64,000 nucleotides of DNA, taken from the NCBI GenBank assembly GCA_963737065.1, contig CAVTRC010000001.1:736001-800000 (forward strand). Reading direction: 5' to 3'. This document shows positions 10,094 through 35,017 of this stretch, piece after piece (position 1 is the first letter of the stretch; every line of letters starts with the position of its first letter). The DNA is from Candidatus Eremiobacteria bacterium (GTDB lineage: Bacteria; Vulcanimicrobiota; Vulcanimicrobiia; Vulcanimicrobiales; Vulcanimicrobiaceae). The position numbers and the translations under genes are program-made. The notes beneath the pieces are model-generated. The model had not been told where the DNA came from. It saw only the letters and a list, made by a program, of their open reading frames with translations, and did no database searches.

Positions 10094-10978
10094 CTAATTC
10101 GACGAGCCCGCGAACACGCGGCTTTTCAGAAGGTCGTCGGGCGCTAGCGTCATCAAGTCGGTGCGCGTAATTTCGCCTTCGCGATCGAACAGCCGATTCG
10201 CTGCGCGCAAACGGGCGCGGTCGATCGCGTTGCGCACGCTGCGCGCGTTGGCGAAGTTCGGCTGGCGCACCCGGCGCTCGAGGTAGTCGCGAAAAATTCG
10301 TTCCGTTTCCGGTGCGAATTCGTAATTCAGTTGGCGCAGCATCACATGCGCGATGGCGACGAGTTCCTCGATCGTGTAATCCGGGAAATCGATGTGATGA
10401 GCAACTCGCGATCGTAGCCCTGGATTTGCCGTGAAGAATTGCTCCATGCCGCGTTTGTATCCGGCAAAGACGACTACCAGATCGTCGCGTTGCTCCTCCA
10501 TCACTTGGAGTAAGATTTCAATCGCCTCGATGCCGTAGTCGCGCTCGTTTTCCGGCCGGTACAAATAGTACGCTTCGTCGATGAACAGCACGCCGCCCAT
10601 CGCGCGCTTCAAGACTTCCTTCGTCTTCGGCGCCGTATGTCCGACGTATTGTCCGACTAAGTCGTCGCGCGTCGCGACGACGACGTGTCCTTTTCGAACG
10701 TAACCCAGCGCGGCGAGGACCTGCGCCACGCGTAGCGCAACGGTCGTTTTTCCGGTTCCGGGCGGCCCCGTGAACGACATGTGGAGCGGAACCTTCTGCG
10801 TGGCGAGCCCGGCGTCACGGCGCATTCGCTCGACGAGCAAGAGATGAGCGATCTCGCGTATTCGCGTCTTCACCGGCACAAGGCCGACTAACTCGTCGTC
10901 GAGTTGTGCCAGCACATTGCCGACGCCCGACTCGGCAAACACGGCCTTTAGGTCGAAGCGGCGTTCATTCTGAATCAT
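10094..10978 (-). CDS. cbbX: RuBisCO activase CbbX (AAA+)
   Basis: [73 protein letters not shown]. Confidence 0.97.
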
Positions 10979-11294
10979 GAAGAGCCGGTCGATGGACGAT
11001 GAAGCTGAGCGCGGTCGTCTGACGTCCGAGGCTTGCATCGTAAGCGTTCACTTTTACGTAGCAGCCCGAATGCAGCGCTCGCGCGCGGCGAACCTCGCCT
11101 AAGACGGCCGCGGGATCGCGCAGATCGAACATCGGCAAACCGAACATCTCCCAGTAATTGTTGCGCGGGTCCGGGTCATCCGTAAACTCGATCGAGACCG
11201 CCCACCCGTTATCCAACGAATACTCGATCTGCTTGCCGATTTGTTCGTCGGTCAGCGGTGGTAGAAATGAAAACGTTCCTTGAGTGATGTGCAT
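10965..11294 (-). CDS. cbbS: RuBisCO small subunit, red-type, 109 aa (C-terminally short)
   Basis: [63 protein letters not shown]. Confidence 0.96.
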
Positions 11295-11305: not shown

Positions 11306-12799
<1,494 letters not shown>

Positions 12800-12808
12800 T
12801 CACGCTCG

Positions 12809-12875
12809 ATTCTTGCACCGCGACTCATAGGCGTCAAATACATTGTTTTCGCGAACGTATAAATGCAAACTTATG
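12809..12875 (-). promoter_or_regulatory. cbbL promoter: LysR/CbbR box (CATAA-N8-TTATA), -35 TTGACG, 17-nt spacer, -10 AAGAAT
   Basis: Read directly on the minus strand; near-identical counterpart at 13747-13813. Confidence 0.8.
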
Positions 12876-13749
12876 CGTGCTTGAAGCCGCCGCGTTCGCA
12901 GAGGTACGAGACGAACGTGAGCGCCGCGGGCGAAAGCTCCCGCTCGGCGCTCGCGACGGCATGCCACGGGCGCATCAACGGGGTAAGCGGCGTTGCGACT
13001 TCTTCGATGAGCCCGTATTCCAATTCCCGAGTAACGGCATCGCGCGCGAGCAAGGACATCCCGAGTCCGCAGCGGACGCCTTCGCGGATGGCCGTGTTCG
13101 ATCCGACGGTCAAGCACGCGGGCGTGATTCCGGCCATTGAAAAAAAGTCTTCAGTGGTGGAACGCGTCCCAGACCCCGGCTCGCGCAGCAGCCAGGTTGC
13201 ATGAGCGAGATCGGCCAACGTTCGCGCGCCGCTTCCCGGCCGCGCGACGATGACGAGTTCGTTCGGCCGCGTCGCCAGCGTGCGCAGTAGGTGTCCTTCC
13301 GGAGGATGGCCCGCAAGAGCGAGCTCCACTTCCCAGGCATTCAGTAATTCCCAAACGCTGCCGCGATTGCCGATCTCCAGGCCGATTTCGACCGAGCCGC
13401 GCTCGTCGCGGAAACCGCGAAGCAATTCCGGGAGCAGTTGTTCCGCAAGCGTCGTCACCGCAGCGAGGCTCAGGAAAGCATTTCCCTCACCGGACCTGCG
13501 CGCTCGCGAGCATCCTTCTTCGATGAGCGCGAGCGCACGACGCGCCGACTCGACCATGACGCGACCGGCGTCCGTGAGACGCGTACCGCGCCCGTCCCGC
13601 TCGAACAACGCGACGCCCACTTCGCGAGCGAGCGCGGTGAGCGCCGCCGATACTGCCGGCTGCGACACGACCATGCGATCGGCGGCCGCGCGAACCGAGC
13701 CGCTTTTCGCAACTTCGACGAGCGTTCGCAACTGATGCAGCGATGGCAT
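12871..13749 (-). CDS. cbbR: LysR-family regulator CbbR
   Basis: HTH 'SLHQLRTLVEVA..GSVRAAA...VSQPAVS', WLLREPGSGTR; lies inside the cbb locus. Confidence 0.92.
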   Translation of the reverse strand: MPSLHQLRTLVEVAKSGSVRAAADRMVVSQPAVSAALTALAREVGVALFERDGRGTRLTDAGRVMVESARRALALIEEGCSRARRSGEGNAFLSLAAVTTLAEQLLPELLRGFRDERGSVEIGLEIGNRGSVWELLNAWEVELALAGHPPEGHLLRTLATRPNELVIVARPGSGARTLADLAHATWLLREPGSGTRSTTEDFFSMAGITPACLTVGSNTAIREGVRCGLGMSLLARDAVTRELEYGLIEEVATPLTPLMRPWHAVASAERELSPAALTFVSYLCERGGFKHA

Positions 13750-13813
13750 AAAACGGGCCTTATGAATAAGCGAAAATATTTTATTTGACGCCTATGTGTC
13801 GCGGTGCCATGAT
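13747..13813 (+). promoter_or_regulatory. fba-fbp-prk promoter: LysR box CATAA-N8-TTATG, -35 TTGACG, 17-nt spacer, -10 CATGAT
   Basis: Palindrome at 13747-13764 overlapping the cbbR start codon; TTGACG 13785-13790; CATGAT 13808-13813. Confidence 0.8.
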
Positions 13814-13850
13814 ACCACAAAAGTCGCACTTCACCTCGGGAGATGTACAC

Positions 13851-14897
13851 GTGGGCACACATGGCGTTTGCTTGGCGCAAGTCGCCGATTCGCTGGTCGC
13901 TTCCGGTAAAGGCATCCTCGCCGCGGATGAGAGCATCCAAACGTGCAACAAGCGATTCCAAGCCCTCGGGATACCGGCCACGGAAGAAACGCGTCGTGCG
14001 TACCGCGAGCTTCTGTTCACTGCGCCGGGTCTTCGCAGCTACATCAGCGGCGCAATAGTATGCGACGAAACGATGCGGCAAACGACCTCGCGCAACGTGC
14101 GTTTCGTCGATGCATTACAGCGCGAACGCATACTCGTCGGAATCAAGGTAGATACCGGAACCGAATCGTTTCCCGGCTCGCCCGATGAAAAGATCACCAC
14201 GGGACTTGACGGGCTCGCGGAACGGATCGCGGAGTACCGCGCACTCGGAGCGCGTTTTGCCAAATGGCGCGCGGTGATTGCGATCGGCGAGAACCGGCCG
14301 TCGCAACACTGCATCGAGGCTAACGCGTACATGCTCGCGCGCTATGCGCGTATCTGCCAAGAAGGCGGCCTCGTCCCGATCGTCGAGCCCGAAGTGCTCA
14401 TGGACGGTTCGCACGACCTTGCCCGGTGCGCCGAAGTCACCGTGATCACGCTCGCGATCGTGTTCGAACAACTGGATCAGGAACGCGTTTGGCCCGATGA
14501 AATGATTTTGAAGCCGTCGATGGTGATCGAAGGCAGCGCCGCGCCGCTGCAGTCGGACCCCCGCGTGGTTGCGGCCGCGACGGTAACCGCATTGAAGAGA
14601 ACCGTTCCCTCACACCTCGCCGGCATCGCGTTTTTGTCGGGAGGGCAGAGCGCGCTGCGTGCCACGGAAAATCTGCATGCGATCACGCGCCTCGCGGGCG
14701 AGTCGTTGTGGCCGCTTACGTTCTCTTTCGGCCGCGCGCTGCAATCGACGGCGCTCGAATATTGGCGGGGAGCAGATGACCGGGTCGTGGAGGCGCAACG
14801 CAAGCTCGTACGTCGCGCTCGGTGCAACGCTGCCGCAGCGCTCGGAATGTACGAACAATCCATGGAAGAGGGTGCCCGCCAAGCGGTGCCGGCATAG
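13851..14897 (+). CDS. fba: Class I fructose-bisphosphate aldolase
   Basis: GKGILAADES, GIKVDTG, RFAKWRAVI, VPIVEPEVL, ILKPSMV, FLSGGQS, TFSFGRALQ; GTG start 13851 after RBS GGGAG and downstream of the promoter. Confidence 0.95.
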   Translation: MGTHGVCLAQVADSLVASGKGILAADESIQTCNKRFQALGIPATEETRRAYRELLFTAPGLRSYISGAIVCDETMRQTTSRNVRFVDALQRERILVGIKVDTGTESFPGSPDEKITTGLDGLAERIAEYRALGARFAKWRAVIAIGENRPSQHCIEANAYMLARYARICQEGGLVPIVEPEVLMDGSHDLARCAEVTVITLAIVFEQLDQERVWPDEMILKPSMVIEGSAAPLQSDPRVVAAATVTALKRTVPSHLAGIAFLSGGQSALRATENLHAITRLAGESLWPLTFSFGRALQSTALEYWRGADDRVVEAQRKLVRRARCNAAAALGMYEQSMEEGARQAVPA

Positions 14898-15965
14898 ATG
14901 CAACCGCGCACGACGTTCAGCCGCTTCATCACCGAAGATCAGCGACGTAAATACGGCGATCCAAACCTCGTCGCTCTTTTGAACGACGTTCAAAGTGCAT
15001 GCAAGCTGATTGCCTCGTACGTTGCGCGCGCATCGCTCGATCACGGCACGAAGCGTGAAAAAACGTTGAACGTTCACGGCGAACATCAAAAGCCGCTGGA
15101 CGTCATCGCGAACGAGATATTTCTGCGCGAATGCGAGTGGGGCGGACACCTGGCCGGAGTCATATCGGAAGAGATGGCTGAGCCGTACGTCATTCCGCCC
15201 ACGTTTTCCAAAGGCGACTATTTGCTCGTATTCGATCCAGTTGACGGGTCGTCCAACTTCGATGTGAATGTGACCGTCGGGTCGATCTTTTCAATTCTTC
15301 GGTCAACGTCGACCGAGGTCGATGCCGATACGTTTTTGCAGGCCGGGAAGGAACAAGTAGCGGCCGGCTTTGCTCTTTATGGGCCGGCCTCGATGATCGT
15401 GCTCACGCTCGGCGAGGGTGTCTTCGGGTTCACGCTCGACCCGCAAATGGGCGTCTATACGCTCACTCATCCCTTTATGACCATTCCGAATAACGCGCAC
15501 GAATTCGCAATCAACGCGTCAAACGAACGTTTTTGGGAGCCGCCTGTTCGCTGCTACGTCGCTGAGTGCGTACAAGGAAAGTCCGGTCCGCGCGGGGCCG
15601 ACTTCAATATGCGGTGGATTGCATCGCTCGTGGCCGAGGTGTATCGCATTCTCATTCGCGGCGGCGTCTTCATGTATCCGCGCGACAAGCGCGAGCCGCT
15701 CAATCCCGGCCGGTTGCGCCTGCTCTACGAAGCAAATCCAATGGCGATGATCATCGAACAAGCCGGCGGTTTGGCGTCGACCGGGCGCGAGCGAATTCTC
15801 GATATCGTTCCCTCCGCGATCCATCAAAAAGTGCCGCTGATCCTCGGTTCTGCATGCGAGGTCGAACGCGTCTGCAGCTATCATGCGACGTACGATCGCG
15901 GCGAAGCTTTGACGTTCGCTACGCCGCTCTTCAATCAACGCTCGCTTCTGCGCGCTACCCCGTAG
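14898..15965 (+). CDS. fbp: Class 1 fructose-1,6-bisphosphatase (CbbF-like FBPase/SBPase)
   Basis: QKPLDVIAN, SEEM, FDPVDGSSN, FNMRWIASLVAEVYRIL, RLRLLYEANP. Confidence 0.96.
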   Translation: MQPRTTFSRFITEDQRRKYGDPNLVALLNDVQSACKLIASYVARASLDHGTKREKTLNVHGEHQKPLDVIANEIFLRECEWGGHLAGVISEEMAEPYVIPPTFSKGDYLLVFDPVDGSSNFDVNVTVGSIFSILRSTSTEVDADTFLQAGKEQVAAGFALYGPASMIVLTLGEGVFGFTLDPQMGVYTLTHPFMTIPNNAHEFAINASNERFWEPPVRCYVAECVQGKSGPRGADFNMRWIASLVAEVYRILIRGGVFMYPRDKREPLNPGRLRLLYEANPMAMIIEQAGGLASTGRERILDIVPSAIHQKVPLILGSACEVERVCSYHATYDRGEALTFATPLFNQRSLLRATP

Positions 15966-15975
15966 CGGAGACACC

Positions 15976-16895
15976 ATGTCCGTCAAGCATCCGATCATCG
16001 GCGTCACGGGATCGTCGGGCGCCGGCACTACGACCGTGCGAACGACGTTTTCGCAGATATTCCGGCGCGAACGGATTGCAGCAACGATTGTCGAGGGCGA
16101 CGCTTTTCATCGATATTCGCGCGAGGAGATGCGCCGGCAACTCGATGGCGCGCATGAGCGAGGCGACCCGCATTTCAGCCACTTCGGCCCCGAGGCCAAT
16201 CTCTTCGTCGAGTTGCAAGCGCTCTTTGAAAGTTACGCGCGTAACGGCTCCGGAAAGGTTCGCGCGTACCTGCATGACGAGAACGACGCGGCTCCATATC
16301 AGCAAGTTCCGGGAACGTTCACACCGTGGATGGATCTGGCACCCGGCGAGCGATCTGCTCTTCTACGAGGGCTTGCACGGCGCCGTGGTCACGGACAAGA
16401 TCGACGTCGCGCGCTACGTCGACCTGCTCATCGGGGTCGTGCCGTCGGTCAATCTCGAGTGGATTCAAAAACTCCATCGCGACAAGACGCAGCGTGGTCA
16501 CTCGCACGAGGCCGTCGTCGATACGATTCTGCGCCGAATGCCCGACTACGTGAACTATATCTGCCCGCAGTTTTCACGAACCGATGTGAACTTTCAGCGC
16601 GTTCCAATCGTCGATACGTCGAACCCCTTCGTCGCGCGTGCGATTCCGGCCGCGGATGAGAGTATGCTCGTTATCCGTTTCCGAAACCCGAAGAGAGATC
16701 GACTTTCCGTATTTGCTCGCGATGCTGCACGGTTCGTTTATGTCACGGCAGAACACGATCGTGTGTCCGGGCGGAAAGATGGACCTCGCGATGCAGTTGA
16801 TTTTCACGCCGATGATTCTGCAACTCATGGACCGCAAGAAGCGCATGTTGCCGCAGCCGATCCAAGGCGGGACGCGGGAACCGGTTCTTTCCTGA
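15976..16895 (+). CDS. prk: Phosphoribulokinase, with two apparent +1 frameshifts (~16348, ~16694)
   Basis: Three consecutive frames join to a full PRK: MSVKHPIIGVTGSSGAGTT...TFTPW / SDLLFYEGLHG...NLEWIQK..RD...PQFSRTDVNFQRVP / IDFPYLL..LHGSFMSR. Confidence 0.93.
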
Positions 16896-16910
16896 TGTAA
16901 CGATAGGCCC

Positions 16911-17624
16911 GTGCGAACGTTCTCGGTACAACTTGCATCGACATGGAAACCGGAACGCTCCGCATTCGTAACGATCGTTATCGACGTCTTGCGCGCGACG
17001 ACGGTCATCGCTACGGCGCTTGCCAACGGCGCGACGCGAGTCGTCCCGACGATCGACATCAACGAAGCGCTCGCGTCACGGCAACGCTTCGGTCGCGACG
17101 TGGTTCTCGGCGGAGAACGGAACACTACTCGAATCGAGGGCTTCGACCTCGGCAACTCGCCCGCCGAATATACCGCGCGCCGAGTGAACGAAAAAATCGT
17201 CGTCCTGACCACGACGAATGGAACGCGCGCTATTCATGTCGCAGCACAATGTTCCGCGCAACTCTATACCGGCGCGCTCGTGAACGCGTCCGCAACCGCC
17301 GAGCGTGCGTGCACGCACGAACTTCCGATCGTTGCCCTCTGCGCCGGAACACAAGGCGAGTTCAGCTTGGAGGATTGGATTTGCGCGGGAGCTTTGGCCG
17401 ATGCGTGCGCGAAGAAAGGGCTCTCGCTCGACGATGCCGCAATCGCGGCGGCCGAATTATTCCGCGCTAAACGCACCGGCCTCTATCACGCGATCAGCGG
17501 CGGCAAACACGCCCAAATCCTCATCGAGAACGGCTTCGCAGGCGACGTCGAGTTCTCGGCCACGCTTGACCGTTACGATGTCGCTCCGGCTTTCGCCGGC
17601 GGCTCGCTGCAACGCGAGCGCTAA
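16911..17624 (+). CDS. comB: 2-phosphosulfolactate phosphatase (ComB) family phosphatase
   Basis: VIDVLRATT, LGGER, FDLGNSP, TTTNGTRA, FSLEDWICAG. Confidence 0.9.
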   Translation: MRTFSVQLASTWKPERSAFVTIVIDVLRATTVIATALANGATRVVPTIDINEALASRQRFGRDVVLGGERNTTRIEGFDLGNSPAEYTARRVNEKIVVLTTTNGTRAIHVAAQCSAQLYTGALVNASATAERACTHELPIVALCAGTQGEFSLEDWICAGALADACAKKGLSLDDAAIAAAELFRAKRTGLYHAISGGKHAQILIENGFAGDVEFSATLDRYDVAPAFAGGSLQRER

Positions 17625-18481
17625 GGGTGAAACATCGCGCGGAAGATGTATACGCCCGGGACGTCGCGGCAGAACGCGCGCGGCGCTTCGTACGTCGATA
17701 GACGGGCCGCGCGAAGAGCAGCGTCGTCGAACGCCTTGACGCCGGACGGCGCGTACACCCACGCACCGTCAAGCTCGCCCTTTGTGCCGACGGCGATTTC
17801 AATGAGCGACTGGTAGACTTGATCGATGTGATAGCCGACGGGCAAATCCGGCCTCATCGCTTCGCTCGCTCTTGCCGGCGCGAACGGCAGCGCGCAGTCG
17901 GTCGGGCCCGGAGCGCTCGCAATGACGGGGTGCAACAGCGGCGTACCGGGCGGCGGCGGTGTCGGCGCCGCGTCGGGATCCAAGGCAACGATGTCTTTCC
18001 CGATCGTCGTTTCCGGATGCTTTGGATCGTACTCAGAACCGGCGCACGCGTGCGATTGCGAATCCCAGCCCAAGGTGTGCTCGTCGGTGACGCGTGCATC
18101 ACTCACGAACGCCGCACGAACGACGGCCGGCGAAGAGAACGCCGCGAACAGCGCGGGCGACTCAAAATCCGTTCGAGTGAATACCGCCGACGGTCCTTCG
18201 AACCGTCGCGTGCGCGCGGTCAAATTCACGCCGTCGAATGGAATCTCGTACCAGCCGTCGTCGGTCTGCACGGAAATGTCACCCGAGACCGTGCGCGAAC
18301 TATTGGCCGACAATCGCACCGCGTACGTGGTTGCCGGCGTGCCGGTTGCGGCACCGACCGGCGTGAGGCTCGCCGAAGCTCCGCAGTACTCGACGATCGC
18401 GAGCGCACGTCCGTGCGCAGCGCCAACGAAAGCGAAAATTCCAGCAGCAAAAAGCGCAACACGAAACGCGCGATGATTCAT
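17621..18481 (-). CDS. Secreted protein with C-terminal TonB_C domain
   Basis: Signal peptide, Pro-rich linker APTPPPPG, 'PSGVKAFDDAALRAARLSTY'. Confidence 0.7.
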   Translation of the reverse strand: MNHRAFRVALFAAGIFAFVGAAHGRALAIVEYCGASASLTPVGAATGTPATTYAVRLSANSSRTVSGDISVQTDDGWYEIPFDGVNLTARTRRFEGPSAVFTRTDFESPALFAAFSSPAVVRAAFVSDARVTDEHTLGWDSQSHACAGSEYDPKHPETTIGKDIVALDPDAAPTPPPPGTPLLHPVIASAPGPTDCALPFAPARASEAMRPDLPVGYHIDQVYQSLIEIAVGTKGELDGAWVYAPSGVKAFDDAALRAARLSTYEAPRAFCRDVPGVYIFRAMFHP

Positions 18482-18558
18482 CACGACCTTTTCCGCTCCC
18501 CCCGCAAAGGCAACCTGCCGGAAGGATTCACATTCGTGCAGGCGGACTACCAATCGTC

Positions 18559-19594
18559 GTGGCTATCAAAAAGCGAAACCGGCACAGCGCTTCTTCTTTA
18601 GAGCGGCGCGGGACTAAGCGACGAGCAACTCGTTGCGATCCTGCGAACGATGCTGATGCACCGTCGCTTGGAAGGTCGCGGCTTCGAACTGAATCGGCAA
18701 GGGAAGATTCCGTTCGCATCGGCCGGCGAAGGTCATGAAGCGGTTCAAGCCGGCGCGGCGATGGCGTTCGAGCGCGGCAAGGATATCCTCGTTCCGTACT
18801 ACCGCGATCTCGGACTCGACATCGGCATCGGGCTTTCACCGTTCGAGGTGCTGCTTTCACTTTTTGCGCGCGCTGGAGATCAATCCGGTGGGCGTCAATT
18901 TCCGCACCACTATGCGAGCAAAAGACTCGGCCTGTACTCGATCAGCTCCGTTCTTGCCGCGCAGCTCCCGCACGCCGTCGGCGCCGCGTATGCGCTGAAG
19001 TACCGCGAAGAAACCGGGCGGGCCGTGCTCGCAACCGTTGGCGACGGCGCGACGTCCGAAGGCGAGTGGCATGAGTCAATGAATTTCGCGGCGATCCACA
19101 AGCTACCGATCGTGTTCCTCTGCGAGAACAACGAATGGGCGATCTCGACGCCGCTCGCCAAGCAAATGGCGAATCAGAACATCTACGAGCGCGCCGAAGG
19201 TTACGGCATGCCGGGTGTCCAGGTCAACGGGTTCGATCCGATCGCCTGCTATGCGGTGGTGAAGGAGGCCATGGAGCGCGCGCGCTCGGGCGGCGGTCCC
19301 ACCTTCATCGAGGCGAAGTGTTACCGATTCCTCGCGCACACGACGGACGACGACGATCGTACGTATCGGAGCCGCGAGGAGGTCGCGGACCGGCGCAGGG
19401 ACGACCCGGTTCCCAACTTCCAACGCCTGCTCGTCGAACACGGTGTGCTGACGCCCGAGGGCCTTGAAGATTTGAAGCGTTCCGTCCTGACGGAGGCGAA
19501 CGAAGCCACGGACCGGGCGGAATCGATGCCGTATCCGGCTCCGCACGACCTCTACACCGATGTGTACGCGGATTCGTATCAGCCCTGGCGCTGA
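18559..19594 (+). CDS. 2-oxoacid (branched-chain type) dehydrogenase E1 alpha, copy 1; N-terminal ~30 codons frameshifted
   Basis: LNRQGKIPF, PYYRD, GDGATSEGEWHE, ENNEWAISTP, YRFLAHT; upstream GTG 18559 and GLSDEQL segment match copy 2. Confidence 0.9.
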
Positions 19595-19611
19595 TGCGCT
19601 GACGCGTGCTT

Positions 19612-19637
19612 CGTGGTTCGACAGGCTCACCATGACA
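19612..19637. repeat. REP-like short element (TGGTTCGACAGGCTCACCATGAC)
   Basis: Resembles the widespread 'TTCGACA.GCTCA' REP-like repeat family; reverse strand reads MVSLSNH; only one copy noticed. Confidence 0.55.
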
Positions 19638-19653
19638 CGGGGAACGAAACAAC

Positions 19654-20680
19654 GTGGCTAAAACGGACGTAACGGCGAAGGGCGTAGATCGTCACGGGCT
19701 GACGGACGAGCAGTTGCAGCAAATCTTTCGGAACATGCTGCTGCAGCGTCAACTCGACAATCGCGGCTTTCAACTCAACCGCCAAGGCAAAGTGCCGTTC
19801 GCGCTCGGCAGCGAGGGACACGAAGCGCTGCAAGCCGGCGCGGCGATGGCGTTTCATCGCGGCAAAGACATCCTCGCGCCGTACTATCGCGATCTCGGTC
19901 TCGCGGTCGGCATCGGGCTCACGCCGTACGAGATCATGCTCTCGATCTTTGCGCGACGCGACGATCATAACGGCGGACGTCAGTTTCCGAATCACTATTC
20001 GTCGAAAGCGGCGGGCTTGATGTCGTTCTCATCGATTCTCGCTGCGCACATTCCGCACGCGATAGGCGCTGCATATGCATTGAAGTATCGCGGGGAAACC
20101 GGACGCGCGGTGCTCGTGACCTGCGGCGACGGCACCACGTCCGAAGGCGAATGGCACGAGTCGATGAACTTTGCGGCGATTCACTCATTGCCGCTCGTGA
20201 TGCTCGTCGAGAACAACGAATGGGCGATTTCGACGCCGCTTTCGAAGCAGATGGCGCAACCGGAAATTTGGAAGCGCGCGGCGGGATACGGCATGCCGGG
20301 CAAACGGTTCAACGGCTTCGATCCGATCGAAACGTACGCAAACGTGAACGAAGCCATGGAACGCGCACGCTCGGACGGCGGCCCGACCCTTCTCGAAGGG
20401 ATGTGTTACCGCTTCTTGGCGCACTCCACGGACGACAACGATATGACGTACCGCACGAAAGAGATCGTCGCCGAAGCGCGCAAGAACGATCCGGTGCCGA
20501 AGTTTCAAACGCTGCTGCGTCGAGGACGGCATCATGAGCGAAGCCGACGTCGACGCGATGAAAAAAGACGTGCTGCGCGAGACGAACGAGGCGACCGATA
20601 AAGCCGAAGCCGTTCCATATCCGCAAGCGTCAGATCTCTATAGCAATCTCTACGAGGGAGCCTGGCAGCCGTGGCAGTAA
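19654..20680 (+). CDS. 2-oxoacid dehydrogenase E1 alpha, copy 2; +1 frameshift at ~20518
   Basis: LNRQGKVPF, GDGTTSEGEWHE, YRFLAHS; shifted frame continues VEDGIMSE...YEGAWQPWQ* like the C-terminus of copy 1. Confidence 0.92.
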
Positions 20681-21672
20681 CCGCCGGATCGAAAGTTCTT
20701 AATAATGTCGAGGCCGTACGCGAAACGCTGTACGAAGCGATGAAGAATGACGACCGCACGATCATTCTCGGCGAAGACGTCGGCGCTCGCGGGAATGTCT
20801 TTCTCATCACGAAGGATTTCATCAGCGAGTTCGGTCCGGACCGCGTCATCGACACACCGATCGCGGAAGCGTCCATCGTCGGTATCGCCGTCGGCATGGC
20901 GATGGAAGGCCTGCGCCCGATTGCGGAGATTCAATTCGCCGATTTCATCTATCCGGCGTTCAACCAAATCGTCGGTGAAGCGGCGAAGACACGCTATCGT
21001 TCGAACGGTGAATACACGTGTCCGCTCGTGATTCGGACGCCGTACGGCGGCGGGGTTCGCGGTGCGCTTTCGCACTCGGTCTCGATCGAAGCGTTGTTCT
21101 ACCACGTGCCCGGGTTGAAGATCGTTGCGCCGGCGTTTCCCGCCGACGTGAAGGGTTTGCTCAACGCCGCGATCGACGATCCCGATCCGGTGCTCTTTCT
21201 CGAACACAAGAAGACGTATCGTTTGATTAAGGGTGAAGTGCCCGAGGGTCACTACACGATTCCGATCGGCAAGGCGAACGTTCTCAAGGAAGGCGCTCAG
21301 CTCACCGTCGTGTCGTACGGGCTGTACGTACACTGGGCGCTCGAAGCCGCCAATCAATTGGAGAACGAAGGCATGTCCGTCGAAGTGATCGATCTGCGCT
21401 CCATCCGCCCGATGGATCGCACAACAATTCTCACGAGCGTCGAGAAGACGCGCAAACTGCTCGTCATCCACGAAGACAACAAGTTCGGCGGTATCGGTGC
21501 CGAGATTTCCGCGATGGTCGCGGAAGAAGCGCTCTTCTCGCTCGACGCGCCGATTCGCCGGCTCGCCGCGCCCGACGTCCCGGCGATGGGCTACGCGGAA
21601 CCACTCGAACACGAGTACATGTCGTCCCCGGCCGCGATGGCCGATGCAATGCGCGAGTTGGTGAAATTCTAA
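20671..21672 (+). CDS. 2-oxoacid dehydrogenase E1 beta
   Basis: [45 protein letters not shown]. Confidence 0.95.
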
Positions 21673-23094
21673 TGGCTACAACGATCACGATGCCGCAACT
21701 CGGCGAAACGGTTACCGAAGGCACCGTCGCACAGTGGCTCAAGAACGTCGGCGACACCGTTGAGAAGTACGAGCCGTTTCTCGAAGTATCGACCGATAAG
21801 GTCAATGCGGAAGTCCCCGCACCCGTGACGGGCGTTATCAAAGACGTGCTCGTGAAAGAAGGCGACACGGTCCCGGTCGGTACTGCGATTGCAGTCATCG
21901 AAGAAGTGGACGGCGCAACCGAAGCTGCGCCTGCAGCACAACCACCGTCGACGACTGAATCGATGGCCGCAAGTGCGAACGAAGAGCCCGTTCCCGGGTT
22001 CAACATTCCGCAATTGCCGACGAACCGGCAGCCGCGTCATCGGGTAACGGCCACACGCGCACGGGAACGGCGTGATTCCGAGTTCGTACGGCGCATCCGG
22101 CGGTCTCGAAGGCGCGGAGGACGCGCTTCGCAAGGCGTCGCCGGCGGTGCGCAAACTCGCGCGCGAGAACAACATCGACATTCGAGCGATCCGCGGAACC
22201 GGCACGAACGGACGCGTTACCGCGGAAGACGTCATGGCGGCGGCCGCAATGGGTCCGGCCGCGGCCGTCGGTCAAGCGATTGCGACCGGCACGAATTTCG
22301 GCGCAACGCCGCCGCCGTCGTTTGCAGCCTCCGCGCCGCCCGCGGCTCCCCCGCCGGCGCCGGCCGCGTCCGGTACATCGAGCTACGGCGCACCGATTCC
22401 CGGCACCGTTATTCCGCTCACGCAAGCGCGCCGCATCATCGCGGAACGCATGGTTGAATCGAAGCATACTGCGCCGCATGCGTGGTCGATGGTTTCGATC
22501 GACGTGACGAACGTGTGGAAATGGCGCGCTCGCGAAAAGGATCGCTTCGAACGCGAAACGGGATACAAATTGACGCTTCTGCCGTTCTTCATTCGCGCCG
22601 TGATCGAGTCGATATCGGTATTTCCCTTGATGAACGCAAAGTTTACGGCGGACGGGATCTACGTGAATAAAGACGTCAACATCGGCATCGCGATCGGTCT
22701 CGCGACAAACCTCGTCGTTCCCGTCATCAAGGGTGCCGATGCCTTGTCGATCAAGGGCCTCGCGATTGCGGCAGGCGAGTTGATCGATAAAGCGCGTCGC
22801 AACAAGCTCGGCGTGGACGATCTCGCGGGTGGAACGTTCACCGTGAACAACAACGGCGCGAACGGTTCATGGGCGTCCGCGCCGATCATCAACGGCGGTC
22901 AAGCCGGAATCGTTACGATGGAAACGGTAGAAAAGAAGCTGCTCGTGCGCGAAGACGATTCATTTGCTCCACGTTACGTGATGAACTCGTGCCTCTCGCT
23001 CGACCATCGCGTCGTCGACGGTTACGTCGCAAGCGGCTTCCTCGCCGACCTGAAGAAACGACTCGAAAAAATGGGCCCGGACGGCGCGCTCTAG
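21672..23094 (+). CDS. Dihydrolipoamide acyltransferase E2; net +1 frameshift in the linker (~22026-22060)
   Basis: Lipoyl domain [11 protein letters not shown]...[11 protein letters not shown]3-binding [18 protein letters not shown]; catalytic SLDHRVVDG. Confidence 0.92.
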
Positions 23095-23240: not shown

Positions 23241-24581
23241 TTACGCTCCGGGGCGCGGAACGAGAGGCCCGATGAAGGGCCGGAAGCTCCGGTGCTGCAG
23301 CATTTGCCGACGCACGGCTTCCGGCAGAACGATGCGCGACGCACGCGCCGCCGCGGGTTTGAACGTACCGCTCGCCGGAATGAGTAGCACGGCCGGCATT
23401 GTGCCGCTGCTCGTGTCGTATGCCTGTCCGACGATCCAACCACGGTCGTTGATGTCGCCCGCGCTTAGCACGTAGAGCTGCGAAGAAGAAATAAGCAGAT
23501 TCAAGTCCGTCATTGCGCCGTTCTGCCAGATGAAACCACGGCATGTTCCGCCGGCATCACATGAATACCCGACCGTCTGATTGGTCTTGTTCACGCCCAG
23601 CGCTTCACTCAGAAGGTCGCCAGGCAACGTTCCGAGATCGCGTATTCCGCCATGCTTCCATTCGACGGCGTGATAGGTCGTGTTTCCACTGAGTGCTGAT
23701 TGTCCGACGATCTCGTCTCGATTATTGATCGCCGTCGCAATGTTTGCGGTCGTCCCGCCTAAGCTGCCGAGATCCGCCGGCGCGCCCACGCCATGCCAAA
23801 CCAGTGCATGCGCGGTACCATATCTGACATTGTTCGGCGGCCCGCAGGGGCCCGATGCGCCTACGGCTGCGCCCGCATCATTGATCGCAACGGCTTGCGA
23901 GACCGCATCACCGTGCAGCGGTTCGAGATCTCGCGGCCGGCCGTCGCGTTCCCAAATAGCACCATCGTAATCGAGGACCTGCGGCGCACCACACGTCGAA
24001 TCCCGAGCGGGCTTTTCTGCGAAACCCGCGATGCGCCCGGATTGATTGACGGCGGCCGCAAACGAGTTGTCACCGCCAAGCGGCGCGAGCGGTGTCATCA
24101 CGTTGTTCTTCCACTTAAAACCGGCGCAGAGATTCGGCGATCCTGTTCCGCAAAAGTTTTCCGCCAGCGGATCGGTCTGCGCGATGTCAGAAAAGCCGGC
24201 TATTTCACCGCGATCGTTTTTCACCGGCCATCCGACCTCGCTGTTCGGACCGCCGAGCGTTCCCAAATCGACGATGTGGCCGTCAACCCAAATGACGGCG
24301 TGAAAGGCGGCGTCTCCGCTAATCCTTGAAAGTCCGCCGACCCAGCCACGATTGTTGATGCTATTGGCTGCGCTTGCGCTACCGCCTAGCGTGCCGAGAT
24401 CGACGACATAGTAATGCGTAATGGTCTTGCTTTGATCGGCGGCGATCGAACGCGAAACGTTCGAAGCGTGTTCGCCCGCCGGCGCGAATGAAGACGGCGC
24501 GCCGCCTCCACTACATCCAGCGATGACGGCCGCGGCGACACCTACGTAAGCGCGCCGAGCCAAACGCCAATTCATACTCAT
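23241..24581 (-). CDS. HAF-type extracellular repeat (beta-propeller) lipoprotein
   Basis: RBS AAGGAG; lipobox IAGC; repeated 'DLGTLGG..S.A..IN..G.VVG' and YHAVEW/FHAVIW units. Confidence 0.85.
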   Translation of the reverse strand: MSMNWRLARRAYVGVAAAVIAGCSGGGAPSSFAPAGEHASNVSRSIAADQSKTITHYYVVDLGTLGGSASAANSINNRGWVGGLSRISGDAAFHAVIWVDGHIVDLGTLGGPNSEVGWPVKNDRGEIAGFSDIAQTDPLAENFCGTGSPNLCAGFKWKNNVMTPLAPLGGDNSFAAAVNQSGRIAGFAEKPARDSTCGAPQVLDYDGAIWERDGRPRDLEPLHGDAVSQAVAINDAGAAVGASGPCGPPNNVRYGTAHALVWHGVGAPADLGSLGGTTANIATAINNRDEIVGQSALSGNTTYHAVEWKHGGIRDLGTLPGDLLSEALGVNKTNQTVGYSCDAGGTCRGFIWQNGAMTDLNLLISSSQLYVLSAGDINDRGWIVGQAYDTSSGTMPAVLLIPASGTFKPAAARASRIVLPEAVRRQMLQHRSFRPFIGPLVPRPGA

Positions 24582-24734
24582 GGTTAGGCTCCTTTGCTCG
24601 CCCGAAGCGACTCTTGCCCGAGCATTTTGCGGATTGCGCCGCTCGCCGCCGCGTTCCCGAATGGCAGTTTTTCGTTGATGAGAGTTCATGCGACGCGGGG
24701 TCACGGCAAGACGCCATGTTGCGTTTGGCATGGT

Positions 24735-26390
24735 GTGAACAGTCTGGAACGCAGCATCCGCCGCTTACTTCGAAGACTGTCCGACGGTTCCGATCCGCCT
24801 GTTACCTCTGCGTTTGCGCAGCGATTCCAACGTGCGTTCAAAGCGCGGAATCCGCGCTTAGCGTTCGAACGAGCCCTATCGGAAGCCGTGAAGGGCTGTG
24901 ATCCGCAGCGCGCGCGCACGCTCAGGGGCGCGTTGGACGGAACAGGGTGCCGCGGAATGAGCGAACGCAGTTACTATCGAGCAAAGAAAGATATCGTAGA
25001 ACGGTTGGCGGTGGTCGTTGCGGCGCGGCTCGTGCCGGTGAACCGCAGTGCGGCAGTCGCACAAGCAACGGAACCGGCTCCTATCGCGCTGCCGATGGTC
25101 GACCGCCTCATGCCGGAGACGATACGTCTAGAATCCTACTGCGGAACCGATCGCGCTCGCGCGCTTTCTGCAGCGGCCTTGTGTGCCGAAATGGACGCGG
25201 ATCAGACGCGTGCCGACACGTTCATAACCGCGGCGGCCGGCCACGTTCGCAACCAGTTCGGCGGTTTCGACGTGGCGGCAGCGTTCGAGGTCGCGCAAAA
25301 CGCGTTTTTTATCGCACGGTGCCGCGGTGATCTTGTTGCGATGCGAGCCGCCTTACGAACGATGGCGCGTTTTCGCGAGCGTTTGAGCGCAGAAGCAAGG
25401 GTCAAATTCTCGCTCGACTGCAGCGAGGTGTTTCTCTACGAAGGCCGTCTGCGCGATGCCGCGCTGGAGCTGCAGGTCGCGGATCTACATGCGTCCACCT
25501 GCAAAAGCACGCTATTGCAGTCGATCGCGCTGGTTCGCCGGGCGCAGATATCGCTGTTGACGCAAGACTTGCACGGTGCCGAAGAAGCCGGCGCCGGCGC
25601 ATTGTACGTCGCCCGTGCGCATGCCGATATCCGCGTTTATGCTGCAGAAGTGCTCGGCCGTTCGGCGCTTCAAACGGGAAGCGCGTGGTCAAGCGCCGGG
25701 CTGGAAGAATGCCGGAGCGTATTTCACTCCCTTAACGTCCGCACCGTTCTCGCGCGTCACCAACTGCGCAACGCGCGCATGGAAGTCGCGGCGCAAACGG
25801 CGCACGACGCTTTCGATATGGCGATCCGCCTTCGATATTGGCACCTTGCAAGCCGGGCGGGATCGACTCTCGCGTTATGCCTTACGTCAAACGAGGCGCG
25901 TCCGTGGATCAGCGAGGTGCTCCGCTTACATCTGCGCGCCAAAAAGCAAAACGCGTACATGGGAGCAGATTTGTTCGATGGCGATGCGCGGGGCCGGCGT
26001 TTGCTGCGCGAATTTTTATTCACTGAAGACGCAGTACGCGCGATCGCACAAACGCATCTCGAGCGCTTCCCTGATTCGGCGTTGGCCACGCATGGGGCGT
26101 CGTTCATCGCGCGGTTAACCGAGTTCATTCTGCGCGGTGCGACCGATCCGTCGGCTCATCCGTCTCCGACCTTCGCGAGTGCAGCAAAGCGGTTTTCCCA
26201 GCAAACGTCGCTTCCGGAATTCGAGCGGGAAGTACGACGGCTCGGTAACCTCGTCGGCGCGCTCGCGACGCTTCTACCGCGCGACGATCGCGGACCGTTC
26301 ATCGCTGCCTGTCGACGGCAAACGCGCGACGCGGAGCGCGCGATGCGGCGGTCGTTCGCGCGCTATCACTGGACGGCGCTACGGTATTAA
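24735..26390 (+). CDS. Hypothetical all-helical protein with probable N-terminal HTH and TPR-like region
   Basis: 'GMSERSYYRAKKDIVERL' resembles a sigma-4/LuxR-like recognition helix; Ala/Leu/Arg-rich helical repeats; divergent from the HAF gene; start uncertain. Confidence 0.55.
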   Translation: MNSLERSIRRLLRRLSDGSDPPVTSAFAQRFQRAFKARNPRLAFERALSEAVKGCDPQRARTLRGALDGTGCRGMSERSYYRAKKDIVERLAVVVAARLVPVNRSAAVAQATEPAPIALPMVDRLMPETIRLESYCGTDRARALSAAALCAEMDADQTRADTFITAAAGHVRNQFGGFDVAAAFEVAQNAFFIARCRGDLVAMRAALRTMARFRERLSAEARVKFSLDCSEVFLYEGRLRDAALELQVADLHASTCKSTLLQSIALVRRAQISLLTQDLHGAEEAGAGALYVARAHADIRVYAAEVLGRSALQTGSAWSSAGLEECRSVFHSLNVRTVLARHQLRNARMEVAAQTAHDAFDMAIRLRYWHLASRAGSTLALCLTSNEARPWISEVLRLHLRAKKQNAYMGADLFDGDARGRRLLREFLFTEDAVRAIAQTHLERFPDSALATHGASFIARLTEFILRGATDPSAHPSPTFASAAKRFSQQTSLPEFEREVRRLGNLVGALATLLPRDDRGPFIAACRRQTRDAERAMRRSFARYHWTALRY

Positions 26391-34073: not shown

Positions 34074-34442
34074 ATGCAGATTCGCAAGCACTTCCGCTTT
34101 GAAGCGGCTCACGTTCTTCCGCACCACCCCGGCAAATGTTCCCGCATGCACGGGCATTCCTACCGCCTCGACGTCGCGGTTCGCGGACCGATTCACAGCG
34201 ATGGTCCGGCGCGCGGCATGATCGAAGATTTCGAGCAGATCAAGGCGATTGTCTGCGAGCACGTCGTCAATATTTTGGACCATCGGACGCTCAACGATCT
34301 CATCGATAATCCAACCGCCGAACACATCATCATGTGGATCTGGCGCGCATTGGAAAATCAGTTGAGCGGCCTCGACGAGCTCGTGCTGTGGGAGACCGCC
34401 ACGAGTTGCGCCGTGCTTCGGCGCAGCGATCTCGGGGCGTGA
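34074..34442 (+). CDS. queD: 6-carboxytetrahydropterin synthase
   Basis: FEAAH, C.RMHGHSY, LDHRTLND, NPTAE, WET. Confidence 0.93.
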   Translation: MQIRKHFRFEAAHVLPHHPGKCSRMHGHSYRLDVAVRGPIHSDGPARGMIEDFEQIKAIVCEHVVNILDHRTLNDLIDNPTAEHIIMWIWRALENQLSGLDELVLWETATSCAVLRRSDLGA

Positions 34443-35017
34443 TGCTTCAGCTGGCTGAAATTTTCTATAGCATTCAAGGCGAGGGACTGTGGAGCGGAAC
34501 GCCGGCGGTTTTCGTTCGACTCGCCGGGTGTAATCTAGCCTGCGACTTCTGCGATACGGACTACGCGTTGAAATTCATGGCAAGCGTGCGCGAAGTCGTT
34601 GCGCGCGTCAACGAGCTCGGCGGTGATTGCCCGATGGTGATTCTCACCGGTGGTGAGCCGCTCGCCCAGGCCGAAACGCTCGACCTCATCAACGCGCTGC
34701 AAACGGACGGACGGCGCGTGCATATTGAATCGAACGGCACCATCTTCACCGAACTTCCGCCCGATGTATGGCTCTGCGTCTCTCCGAAGGAACGCGTCGA
34801 TCCGCGCATGGCGAAACGCGCGAACGAAGCAAAGCTGATCGTCGACGGGCGCGTGCCGGAGGAGCATCTTGCACTCTTCGAAGAGCAGTCCACCATTCTG
34901 TTACAGCCGGAAGGCAACAAGCGTCCGAACGTTGAGCTTGCATTGGCATACGCGAAGCTGCACCCTAAACGGTTTCGCATCTCGCTTCAAACCCACAAGT
35001 TGATTGGAGTCCCGTGA
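34442..35017 (+). CDS. queE: 7-carboxy-7-deazaguanine synthase (radical SAM)
   Basis: EIFYSIQGEG, FVRLAGCNLACDFCDTD, TGGEP, ESNGT, VSPK, SLQTHK. Confidence 0.93.
   Translation: MLQLAEIFYSIQGEGLWSGTPAVFVRLAGCNLACDFCDTDYALKFMASVREVVARVNELGGDCPMVILTGGEPLAQAETLDLINALQTDGRRVHIESNGTIFTELPPDVWLCVSPKERVDPRMAKRANEAKLIVDGRVPEEHLALFEEQSTILLQPEGNKRPNVELALAYAKLHPKRFRISLQTHKLIGVP

What the first reader, a model, noticed from the sequence alone, without database searches (positions are those of the whole stretch)
16911..17624. ComB-family phosphatase ends the Calvin-cycle operon: candidate non-HAD phosphoglycolate phosphatase
Seen: a gene with intact ComB motifs starts 15 nt after the prk stop and is the last co-directional gene. 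No cbbZ, cbbY or coenzyme M gene (comA/C/D/E) is in the window. Known: archaeal ComB also hydrolyses phosphoglycolate and other 2-hydroxyacid phosphates, and cbb operons often carry HAD-type CbbZ/CbbY. Inference: ComB was recruited for 2-phosphoglycolate salvage or for removing RuBisCO-inhibitory sugar phosphates.
Basis: partly seen in the sequence, partly recalled or inferred. Interest (0 to 1): 0.72.

Follow-up and report, generated by a model that had tools for sequence, protein, structure and literature searches.

The report
ComB-type phosphatase recruited to Calvin-cycle clusters
An intact gene for a ComB-family phosphatase sits right behind the phosphoribulokinase gene, and its relatives keep turning up inside Calvin-cycle gene clusters of one bacterial family, which makes it a good but untested candidate for the enzyme that clears RuBisCO's toxic by-product 2-phosphoglycolate.

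Summary
The gene is real. Window 16911-17624 (+) encodes an intact 237-aa PF04029 (ComB family) protein (231 bits, E 9e-69; PDB 1VR0 E 3e-43). It starts 15 nt after the prk stop. These are probably assembly indels, because two neighbouring genes are split too.

The genome has no phosphosulfolactate synthase (ComA), so the textbook ComB substrate is not expected.

Of 401 genomes of the phylum, 49 have form-I rbcL or prk. Of those 49, 25 have ComB, and in 17 of them (8 genera) comB lies in or beside the cbb cluster, in at least seven different gene orders.

The counter-evidence:
- 51 genomes without RuBisCO or prk also keep ComB.
- 22 RuBisCO genomes lack ComB.
- 0 of 80 ComB loci from other phyla have cbb genes; 30 of those 80 sit behind gcvT.
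- Generic HAD phosphatases are present in 27 of 30 Calvin-cycle genomes checked.

Best reading, at about 50%: a non-HAD 2-hydroxyacid-phosphate phosphatase that acts mainly on 2-phosphoglycolate. No activity was tested, and I found no paper describing the link.

The parts
10094..10978 (-). cbbX (red-type RuBisCO activase AAA+)
   Evidence: TIGR02880 474 bits, over the cut-off of 459. The start was placed by alignment to G003 cbbX, 89% identity.
10965..11294 (-). rbcS (RuBisCO small subunit)
   Evidence: tblastn of G003 rbcS, 80% identity over 104 aa; ATG at 11294.
11306..12772 (-). rbcL (form I RuBisCO large subunit)
   Evidence: PF00016 455.9 bits plus PF02788; NF003252 770 bits.
12871..13749 (-). 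LysR-type regulator (cbbR-like), upstream of rbcL on the same strand and divergent from fba
   Evidence: PF00126 plus PF03466. The CbbR model NF045990 scores 155.8 bits, below its cut-off.
13785..14897 (+). class I fructose-bisphosphate aldolase (start uncertain)
   Evidence: NF033379 461.6 bits, over the cut-off.
14898..15965 (+). class 1 fructose-1,6-bisphosphatase
   Evidence: NF006779 469 bits, over the cut-off.
15976..16895 (+). prk (phosphoribulokinase), split over three frames by single-base insertions near 16347 and 16691
   Evidence: NF011997 profile positions 1-123, 123-239 and 236-288 fall in frames 1, 2 and 3. Nucleotide alignment with the intact G003 prk is; tblastn frames are.
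16911..17624 (+). comB-family phosphatase (the finding); intact
   Evidence: PF04029 231.5 bits. 1VR0 E 3.2e-43. Only copy in the genome. Below every NCBIfam equivalog cut-off.
17621..18553 (-). convergent ORF (likely start at the internal Met, about 18481), signal-peptide-like N-terminus; not part of the operon
   Evidence: Codon-position GC pattern typical of coding sequence. Only a weak TonB_C hit, E 4e-4. No homolog in the other 40 fetched phylum loci.
18566..23094 (+). pyruvate-dehydrogenase-like genes (E1alpha, second E1alpha, E1beta, E2), co-directional. In G003 they follow comB directly. E1alpha-2 (~20510) and E2 (~22030) are frameshifted here.
   Evidence: Pfam and NCBIfam hits; G003 orthologs; frames by tblastn.

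Best explanation
The gene encodes a ComB-fold, presumably Mg2+-dependent, phosphatase that acts on phosphate esters of 2-hydroxy-carboxylic acids. In this bacterial family (probably Eremiobacterota) it has become a regular companion of the Calvin-cycle genes. Its most likely job is to hydrolyse 2-phosphoglycolate, the product of RuBisCO's oxygenase reaction, to glycolate. That makes it a non-HAD functional analogue of CbbZ/Gph. In the window it is probably transcribed as the last gene of an fba-fbp-prk-comB unit that diverges from cbbR-rbcL-rbcS-cbbX. The glycolate could then be consumed by a GlcD/GlcE-like oxidase and malate synthase encoded elsewhere in the genome.

Shown: family membership, an intact gene, absence of ComA, and recurrent linkage and co-occurrence with cbb genes. 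Inferred: the substrate, co-transcription and physiological role.
For: 1. Family and integrity. PF04029 231.5 bits. Solved ComB-family structures 1VR0, 2YYV and 2Z0J match at E 3e-43 to 4e-25. All family-invariant columns are present.

2. Not a coenzyme M or sulfolactate enzyme here. ComA PF02679 has 0 hits in the genome, which is 95% complete. The protein scores 124.9 bits against TIGR00298, below its cut-off of 175.

3. Linkage. Of 401 genomes of the phylum, 49 have form-I-type rbcL or NF011997 prk. Of those, 25 also have ComB. In 16 of them ComB lies within 8 kb of rbcL or prk on the same contig. G174 adds a seventeenth case, with cbbX-comB at a contig edge. The 17 genomes span 8 genera. 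Chance for one gene in a 3-Mb genome is about 0.5%.

4. Different gene orders:
- fba-fbp-prk-comB: G000, G003
- comB-fbp-prk: G024, G274
- prk and comB convergent: G273, G294
- rbcL-rbcS-cbbX-comB with overlapping stop and start: G051, G229, G154, G290, G174
- cbbX-x-comB: G297, G298
- cbbX and comB convergent: G305
- cbbR-comB: G162, G318

5. Co-occurrence. In genus g31, rbcL is found in 4 of 80 genomes and ComB in 4 of 80, and they are the same four genomes. In the window's own genus, only G000 and G003 have either gene.

6. In ComB subclade A of the tree, 7 of 8 genome rows are cbb-linked.

7. No canonical Gph. TIGR01449 is over its cut-off in 0 of 30 Calvin-cycle genomes of the lineage, and none of the weaker HAD hits lies in a cbb cluster.

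8. A sink for glycolate exists: GlcD-like 469 bits with a GlcE-like neighbour, and malate synthase over its cut-off.

9. Established knowledge, recalled: Rhodobacter-type operons carry cbbX-cbbY-cbbZ in the same position, and M. jannaschii ComB was reported to hydrolyse phosphoglycolate.
Against: - ComB is not specific to the Calvin cycle. 51 ComB-bearing genomes of the phylum have no rbcL or prk hit; 22 of them belong to genus g29.
- 22 RbcL-positive genomes have no ComB hit, so it is dispensable for the cycle.
- Generic HAD phosphatases (59-98 bits to PGP_bact) are present in 27 of 30 Calvin-cycle genomes and could be the real phosphoglycolate phosphatase.
- No complementary ComB/Gph distribution was seen.
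- Outside this phylum, 0 of 80 ComB loci have cbb genes within 10 kb.
- In three genomes comB is convergent with the cbb genes, so it is not co-transcribed there.
- In g29, the sister ComBs of G229 and G144 differ by presence or absence of the cbbR-rbcLS-cbbX cassette exactly upstream of comB. Part of the adjacency may therefore reflect a recombination site rather than function.
- All linked genomes belong to one family, so the cases are not independent.
- prk in the window is broken as assembled.
- No enzymatic or transcript evidence exists, and the substrate range of archaeal ComB could not be verified in the library.
Confidence: 0.5

Rival explanations
1. ComB is a housekeeping metabolite-repair phosphatase, acting for example on 2-phospholactate or on 2-phosphoglycolate from sources other than RuBisCO. 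It has no special tie to the Calvin cycle. Its adjacency to cbb genes would then be inherited synteny, or hitch-hiking at a site where the cbb cassette comes and goes.
For: 51 ComB-bearing genomes lack rbcL and prk. Linked and unlinked ComBs are interspersed in subclade B of the tree, with at least 6 label changes forced. G229 and G144 differ by a clean four-gene cassette next to comB. In other phyla ComB sits beside gcvT (30 of 80 loci) or other unrelated genes.
Against: Adjacency is kept through at least seven different gene orders in 8 genera. Simple inherited synteny does not predict that. Co-occurrence is near perfect outside g29 and g49; in g31 the four genomes with rbcL are the four with ComB, out of 80.
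Confidence: 0.22
2. ComB is a functional analogue of CbbY. It removes the phosphate from xylulose-1,5-bisphosphate or another RuBisCO-inhibiting sugar phosphate released by the activase CbbX.
For: comB directly follows cbbX, with overlapping stop and start, in G051, G229, G154, G290 and G174, and lies one gene further on in G297 and G298. This mirrors the recalled cbbX-cbbY order of Rhodobacter-type operons.
Against: The family is known (recalled) for 2-hydroxy-acid phosphates, not ketose bisphosphates. ComB is kept by many relatives without RuBisCO and by phyla without RuBisCO, where XuBP does not arise. In the window it follows prk, not cbbX.
Confidence: 0.12
3. ComB is a true 2-phosphosulfolactate phosphatase that makes sulfolactate, as in coenzyme M synthesis or the Bacillus yitCD genes.
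For: Family name and fold. 4 of 80 bacterial ComB loci elsewhere do sit beside ComA (L050, L084, L090, L101).
Against: No ComA in the genome. The protein is below the TIGR00298 equivalog cut-off. No ComA was seen next to comB in the gene maps and Pfam scans of the 40 phylum loci fetched.
Confidence: 0.03
4. The cbb operon of this organism is decaying, with prk truly frameshifted, and comB is only a surviving passenger.
For: Two frameshifts in prk, and no second prk in the genome.
Against: The out-of-frame prk segments remain 85-88% identical in protein to G003, at about 81% nucleotide identity. That argues for sequencing error or a very recent event. Two further frameshifts lie in the neighbouring E1alpha-2 and E2 genes. 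The assembly has only 2 contigs, which is typical of long reads with indel errors (my inference). All other cbb genes are intact.
Confidence: 0.1

Closest known systems
ComB, 2-phosphosulfolactate phosphatase (PF04029; M. jannaschii ComB; B. subtilis YitC; structures 1VR0, 2YYV, 2Z0J)
   Same: Same fold and family: 231 bits to PF04029, E 3e-43 to 1VR0, and all family-invariant residues present.
   Different: No ComA partner in the genome. Below the cut-off of every NCBIfam ComB equivalog model. It sits in a Calvin-cycle operon, not among coenzyme M or sulfolactate genes.
CbbZ / Gph, HAD-type 2-phosphoglycolate phosphatase of cbb operons (TIGR01449)
   Same: It occupies the accessory-phosphatase place in a cbb operon, and the proposed reaction is 2-phosphoglycolate to glycolate.
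   Different: Unrelated fold. No HAD domain was detected; PF04029 was the only Pfam hit. Activity is untested.
CbbY, HAD-type xylulose-1,5-bisphosphate phosphatase paired with CbbX
   Same: In relatives comB directly follows cbbX, as cbbY does in Rhodobacter-type operons (the operon order is recalled).
   Different: Unrelated fold. The substrate class known for the ComB family differs. In the window the gene follows prk.
Orphan bacterial ComB homologs next to glycine-cleavage genes
   Same: Same family, also without ComA. In 30 of 80 sampled loci gcvT lies directly upstream. Two Peptococcaceae-type loci have gcvT-H-PA-PB-lplA-comB. This is another context that touches C2 (glycolate/glycine) metabolism.
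   Different: Different phyla and no RuBisCO genes nearby. No function is assigned there either.

Membership tests
ComB family (PF04029, 2-phosphosulfolactate phosphatase fold) | Full-length match to the family profile above the curated cut-off | tested here: met
   231.5 bits against a cut-off of 26.4; profile positions 13-223 of 226.
ComB family (PF04029, 2-phosphosulfolactate phosphatase fold) | Sequence homology to solved ComB-family structures | tested here: met
   1VR0 E 3.2e-43, 2YYV E 1.3e-39, 2Z0J E 4.2e-25, each aligned over about 210 residues.
ComB family (PF04029, 2-phosphosulfolactate phosphatase fold) | Conserved family residues present | tested here: met
   28 invariant and 15 near-invariant columns in a 37-sequence alignment that includes the query. 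The roles of individual residues were not checked against a ligand complex.
Genuine 2-phosphosulfolactate phosphatase (ComB sensu stricto, TIGR00298 equivalog) | Score above the equivalog cut-off | tested here: not met
   124.9 bits against a cut-off of 175.05. The best 'family protein' model, NF002054, scores 204.7 against 330.
Genuine 2-phosphosulfolactate phosphatase (ComB sensu stricto, TIGR00298 equivalog) | Phosphosulfolactate synthase (ComA) present to supply the substrate | tested here: not met
   PF02679 has 0 matches in the 95%-complete genome. Controls ring in B. subtilis, C. glutamicum and M. jannaschii.
Genuine 2-phosphosulfolactate phosphatase (ComB sensu stricto, TIGR00298 equivalog) | Mg2+-dependent hydrolysis of 2-phosphosulfolactate | not testable with these tools
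   Needs an enzyme assay.
CbbZ/Gph phosphoglycolate phosphatase (HAD superfamily, TIGR01449) | HAD-fold domain | tested here: not met
   PF04029 is the only Pfam hit at E <= 0.001. The TIGR01449 hits in the genome lie elsewhere: C2:31559, C1:1858922 and three weaker places.
CbbZ/Gph phosphoglycolate phosphatase (HAD superfamily, TIGR01449) | Encoded within a cbb operon | tested here: met
   15 nt after prk on the same strand. Linked to cbb genes in 17 genomes of 8 genera.
CbbZ/Gph phosphoglycolate phosphatase (HAD superfamily, TIGR01449) | Hydrolyses 2-phosphoglycolate | not testable with these tools
   Needs an assay or complementation.
CbbY xylulose-1,5-bisphosphate phosphatase (HAD) | HAD fold; gene paired with cbbX | tested here: inconclusive
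   HAD fold not met. Pairing with cbbX is met in G051, G229, G154, G290 and G174, but not in the window.

The most novel reading that the evidence does not exclude
PF04029 'orphan ComB' proteins are a second, non-HAD class of 2-phosphoglycolate phosphatase. In Calvin-cycle Eremiobacterota they replace CbbZ inside the cbb clusters. The same activity explains why the family sits behind gcvT in the Bacteroidota/Ignavibacteriota/Chlorobiota group and inside gcvTHP-lplA operons of Peptococcaceae-type Firmicutes. On this reading, most bacterial ComBs belong to C2 (glycolate/glycine) metabolism and not to sulfonate or coenzyme M synthesis.
Probability: 0.3. Interest if true: 0.75.

Novelty: new variant of a known kind. 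Interest (0 to 1): 0.62.

Why it matters
Aerobic RuBisCO users must dispose of 2-phosphoglycolate. Yet none of the 30 Calvin-cycle genomes examined in this lineage has a recognisable Gph/CbbZ. The lineage is known for atmospheric chemosynthesis and aerobic anoxygenic phototrophy. A ComB-fold phosphoglycolate phosphatase would fill that gap and add a case of non-orthologous enzyme displacement in photorespiratory metabolism. It would also give the first functional lead for thousands of bacterial 'phosphosulfolactate phosphatase' annotations in organisms that make no phosphosulfolactate. The test is cheap: one recombinant enzyme and a small substrate panel.

Tried and rejected
- Sequencing runs for window 15900-17700: none was listed. 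Neither the prk frameshifts nor transcription could therefore be checked with reads.
- Metagenome scan with the protein: one weak 37-residue match only.
- Search for fused forms: 11 long proteins, mostly singletons with unrelated domains, and one ComA-ComB fusion. Uninformative for the Calvin-cycle question.
- Promoter and terminator scan of 12600-19000: counts no higher than in shuffles, and no terminator after comB.
- Complementary distribution of ComB against canonical Gph: not seen, because 0 of 30 genomes has a hit over the cut-off.
- Specificity-residue comparison between ComA-linked and cbb-linked ComBs: dropped, because only 4 ComA-linked loci were in hand.
- Literature: no paper found joining ComB or phosphosulfolactate phosphatase with phosphoglycolate, RuBisCO or the Calvin cycle in a relevant way. 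One search was badly posed and gave nothing. The original ComB enzymology paper was not in the library.
- Earlier findings of this scan: nothing near this place or like this sequence. Eight of the nine hits for 'phosphosulfolactate phosphatase' were shown; they concern ComA cassettes and an AsnB neighbour and do not bear on this report.
- Cluster look-up of the closest homologs gave no organism names.
- No structure prediction was run, because sequence identity to solved ComB structures already settles the fold.

Full report
**What is in the window**

ORF 16911-17624 (+), with a GTG start and 237 aa, is a full-length member of Pfam PF04029, the '2-phosphosulpholactate phosphatase' or ComB family. 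It scores E 9.1e-69 and 231.5 bits over profile positions 13-223 of 226.

It matches three solved but functionally uncharacterised ComB-family structures: 1VR0 at E 3.2e-43, 2YYV at 1.3e-39 and 2Z0J at 4.2e-25. It holds every column that is invariant in an alignment with 36 homologs.

It falls below the cut-off of every NCBIfam ComB model. Against TIGR00298 it scores 124.9 bits where 175 is required. The best model, NF002054, gives 204.7 where 330 is required. It is the only PF04029 gene in the genome, which has 3.08 Mb in 2 contigs and is 95% complete.

**The surrounding genes**

- On the minus strand: a LysR/cbbR-like regulator (12871-13749), rbcL (11306-12772), rbcS (10965-11294) and cbbX (10094-10978).
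- Diverging on the plus strand: class I aldolase (13785-14897), class 1 FBPase (14898-15965), prk (15976-16895) and comB.

The same-genus genome G003 has the same spacing and a comB that is 70% identical.

**Two corrections to the observation**

First, prk is not one ORF. Its profile is matched in three successive frames. A nucleotide alignment with the intact G003 prk shows two single-base insertions, near 16347 and 16691.

The out-of-frame parts are still 85-88% identical in protein to G003, at about 81% nucleotide identity. The neighbouring E1alpha-2 and E2 genes are each split once too. The assembly has only two contigs. I therefore read these as assembly indels rather than decay, but I could not check reads because no run was listed.

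Second, comB is 'last' only locally. A convergent ORF (17621-18553) overlaps its stop. Four co-directional pyruvate-dehydrogenase-like genes follow from about 18566. In G003 they begin 8 nt after comB by my longest-ORF call.

**Is it a coenzyme M or sulfolactate enzyme?**

Not by the evidence here. The genome has no phosphosulfolactate synthase: PF02679 gives 0 hits, while the controls ring in B. subtilis, C. glutamicum and M. jannaschii.

**Is the linkage to cbb genes conserved?**

Outside the phylum the answer is no. In 80 ComB loci from many phyla, each with up to 10 kb on either side, none had rbcL, rbcS, cbbX, prk, fbp or fba.

Inside the phylum the answer is yes. The phylum is probably Eremiobacterota, because homologs carrying such names fall inside the same ComB clade. 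I searched 401 genomes with PF04029, the prk model NF011997 and PF00016 and joined the coordinates in a script. The counts are:

- 76 genomes have ComB.
- 49 genomes have form-I-type rbcL or prk. I left out four weaker RuBisCO-family hits in families f18 and f21, and one second weak hit in G378.
- 25 genomes have both.
- In 16 of those 25, ComB lies within 8 kb of rbcL or prk on the same contig.
- G174 adds a seventeenth case, with cbbX-comB at a contig edge.

The 17 genomes belong to 8 genera. The gene orders differ:

| Gene order | Genomes |
|---|---|
| fba-fbp-prk-comB | G000, G003 |
| comB-fbp-prk | G024, G274 |
| prk and comB convergent | G273, G294 |
| rbcL-rbcS-cbbX-comB, with overlapping stop and start | G051, G229, G154, G290, G174 |
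| cbbX, one unrelated gene, comB | G297, G298 |
| cbbX and comB convergent | G305 |
| cbbR-comB | G162, G318 |
| LysR-comB, 6.7 kb from rbcL | G377 |

Co-occurrence is sharp in some genera. In g31, rbcL occurs in 4 of 80 genomes and ComB in 4 of 80, and these are the same four genomes. In the window's own genus, only G000 and G003 have either gene.

A maximum-likelihood tree puts all ComBs of families f1 and f3 in one clade of 40 rows (support 95/82). In subclade A, 7 of the 8 genome rows are cbb-linked. In subclade B, linked and unlinked rows are interspersed. At least six changes of the label are forced overall.

**Results that cut the other way**

- 51 ComB-bearing genomes have no rbcL or prk hit. 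22 of them are in genus g29, where ComB occurs in 27 of 33 genomes and rbcL in 5 of 33.
- 22 RbcL-positive genomes have no ComB hit.
- G229 (linked) and G144 (unlinked) have sister ComBs (100/99). They differ by the clean presence or absence of cbbR-rbcL-rbcS-cbbX between comB and a HisK-LytTR pair. Some of the adjacency may therefore come from cassette gain or loss at one site.
- The canonical phosphoglycolate phosphatase model TIGR01449 is over its cut-off in 0 of 30 Calvin-cycle genomes. However, 27 of the 30 have generic HAD hits of 59-98 bits. None of these is in a cbb cluster, but each could be the real enzyme, and no complementary ComB/Gph pattern appeared.
- All linked genomes are relatives, so the counts overstate independence.
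- The tallies include genomes flagged unpublished: G014, G243 and G283 among the RuBisCO genomes without ComB, and G361 among the ComB genomes without cbb genes. No linkage case rests on them.

**How it most likely works**

ComB-family enzymes are, from recalled literature, Mg2+-dependent phosphatases for 2-hydroxy-carboxylic-acid phosphates. 2-Phosphoglycolate is the simplest such ester and the unavoidable oxygenase product of RuBisCO.

Several observations point the same way. The gene is tied to cbb genes through many rearrangements. The textbook substrate pathway is absent. The lineage lacks a recognisable Gph. The position mirrors the accessory phosphatases of cbbX-cbbY-cbbZ operons. Glycolate could be used further, since the genome has a GlcD-like gene (469 bits) with a GlcE-like neighbour and malate synthase.

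I put 'phosphatase serving the Calvin cycle, chiefly on 2-phosphoglycolate' at about 0.5.

ComB persists in relatives without RuBisCO. This fits a substrate that also arises without RuBisCO, and it argues against a purely XuBP-directed (CbbY-like) role, which I put at 0.12. It also keeps alive the rival that ComB is a general repair phosphatase whose linkage is partly historical (0.22). A true phosphosulfolactate role is unlikely (0.03).

**Seen in passing, and possibly relevant**

In 30 of the 80 loci from other phyla, gcvT (the glycine-cleavage T protein) lies directly upstream of comB. These are mostly Bacteroidota, Ignavibacteriota and Chlorobiota, plus a Latescibacterota MAG.

A Desulfitobacterium MAG and a Peptococcaceae genome have gcvT-gcvH-gcvPA-gcvPB, then one or two radical SAM genes, then lplA-comB.

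Only 4 of the 80 loci sit beside ComA.

Glycine cleavage is the downstream end of the C2 (glycolate) route. RuBisCO in one phylum and gcv genes in others would therefore both fit a phosphoglycolate or C2 role. This is association only.

**Known or new?**

The family and fold are known. I did not find ComB described as a cbb-cluster gene or as a candidate phosphoglycolate phosphatase:

- Full-text searches joining phosphosulfolactate phosphatase or ComB with phosphoglycolate, RuBisCO or Calvin gave only irrelevant papers.
- A search for Eremiobacterota plus Calvin plus phosphoglycolate gave none.
- In the paper on the first cultured member of the phylum (PMC9758169; I saw passages found by term search), 'phosphoglycolate', 'phosphosulfolactate' and 'cbbX' each occur zero times.

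Subscription journals are not covered by these searches. I rate the finding a new variant of a known kind, with interest about 0.6.

Noticed in passing
window 15976-16895; 19654-20677; 21672-23094: prk carries two single-base insertions relative to the same-genus genome G003. The second E1alpha gene (near 20510) and the E2 gene (near 22030) are each split over two frames. That is four frameshifts in about 6 kb, while rbcL, cbbX, fbp, fba, comB and a 4.1-kb lhr gene are intact. These are probably long-read assembly indels, but this is unverified.
   Followed up: partly
L023-L102 (e.g. L023:5695-7514, L041:8846-10687, L060:8468-10732, L079:4668-6568): In 30 of 80 ComB loci from other phyla, the glycine-cleavage T-protein gene gcvT lies directly upstream of comB. 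These come from the Bacteroidota/Ignavibacteriota/Chlorobiota group and a Latescibacterota MAG. ftsK often follows. I found no explanation.
   Followed up: partly
L080:2407-11946 and L055:1766-12101: A Desulfitobacterium MAG and Peptococcaceae bacterium CEB3 carry gcvT-gcvH-gcvPA-gcvPB, then one or two radical SAM genes, then lplA, comB, a small PK_C-domain protein and a PduL-like phosphotransacylase, all on one strand. Here comB is embedded in a glycine-cleavage and lipoylation operon.
   Followed up: partly
L129:3597-9891 (G229) versus L144:8428-10358 (G144): The two genomes have sister ComBs. They differ by a clean four-gene cassette (cbbR, rbcL, rbcS, cbbX) that is present or absent exactly between comB and a HisK-LytTR two-component pair. 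In G229 both junctions have 4-nt gene overlaps.
   Followed up: partly
L112:13480-17375 (G162): In this genus-g31 genome the cbb cluster uses a different phosphoribulokinase type (PF00485, but not found by NF011997) and a GlpX-type FBPase in place of the class 1 FBPase. It still has comB, here behind cbbR.
   Followed up: no
window 17621-18553 (-): A convergent ORF with a signal-peptide-like N-terminus and a weak TonB C-terminal hit sits between comB and the PDH-like genes. It has no counterpart in G003 or in the other 39 fetched phylum loci, so it looks like a recent insertion.
   Followed up: partly
window 18566-20677; L103:6779-9058: Two tandem E1alpha paralogs (about 67-69% identical to each other) precede a single E1beta and E2, in both G000 and G003.
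   Followed up: no
window 23241-24731 (-): A 496-aa protein with HAF repeats (TIGR02913) and no Pfam hit. The overlapping 598-aa ORF at 24594-26390 (+) has no family hit at all.
   Followed up: no
window 34334-36466: Futalosine-pathway-like genes (radical SAM, PNP_UDP_1, VitK2_biosynth) give partial profile matches and overlapping ORFs. This may mean further frameshifts.
   Followed up: no
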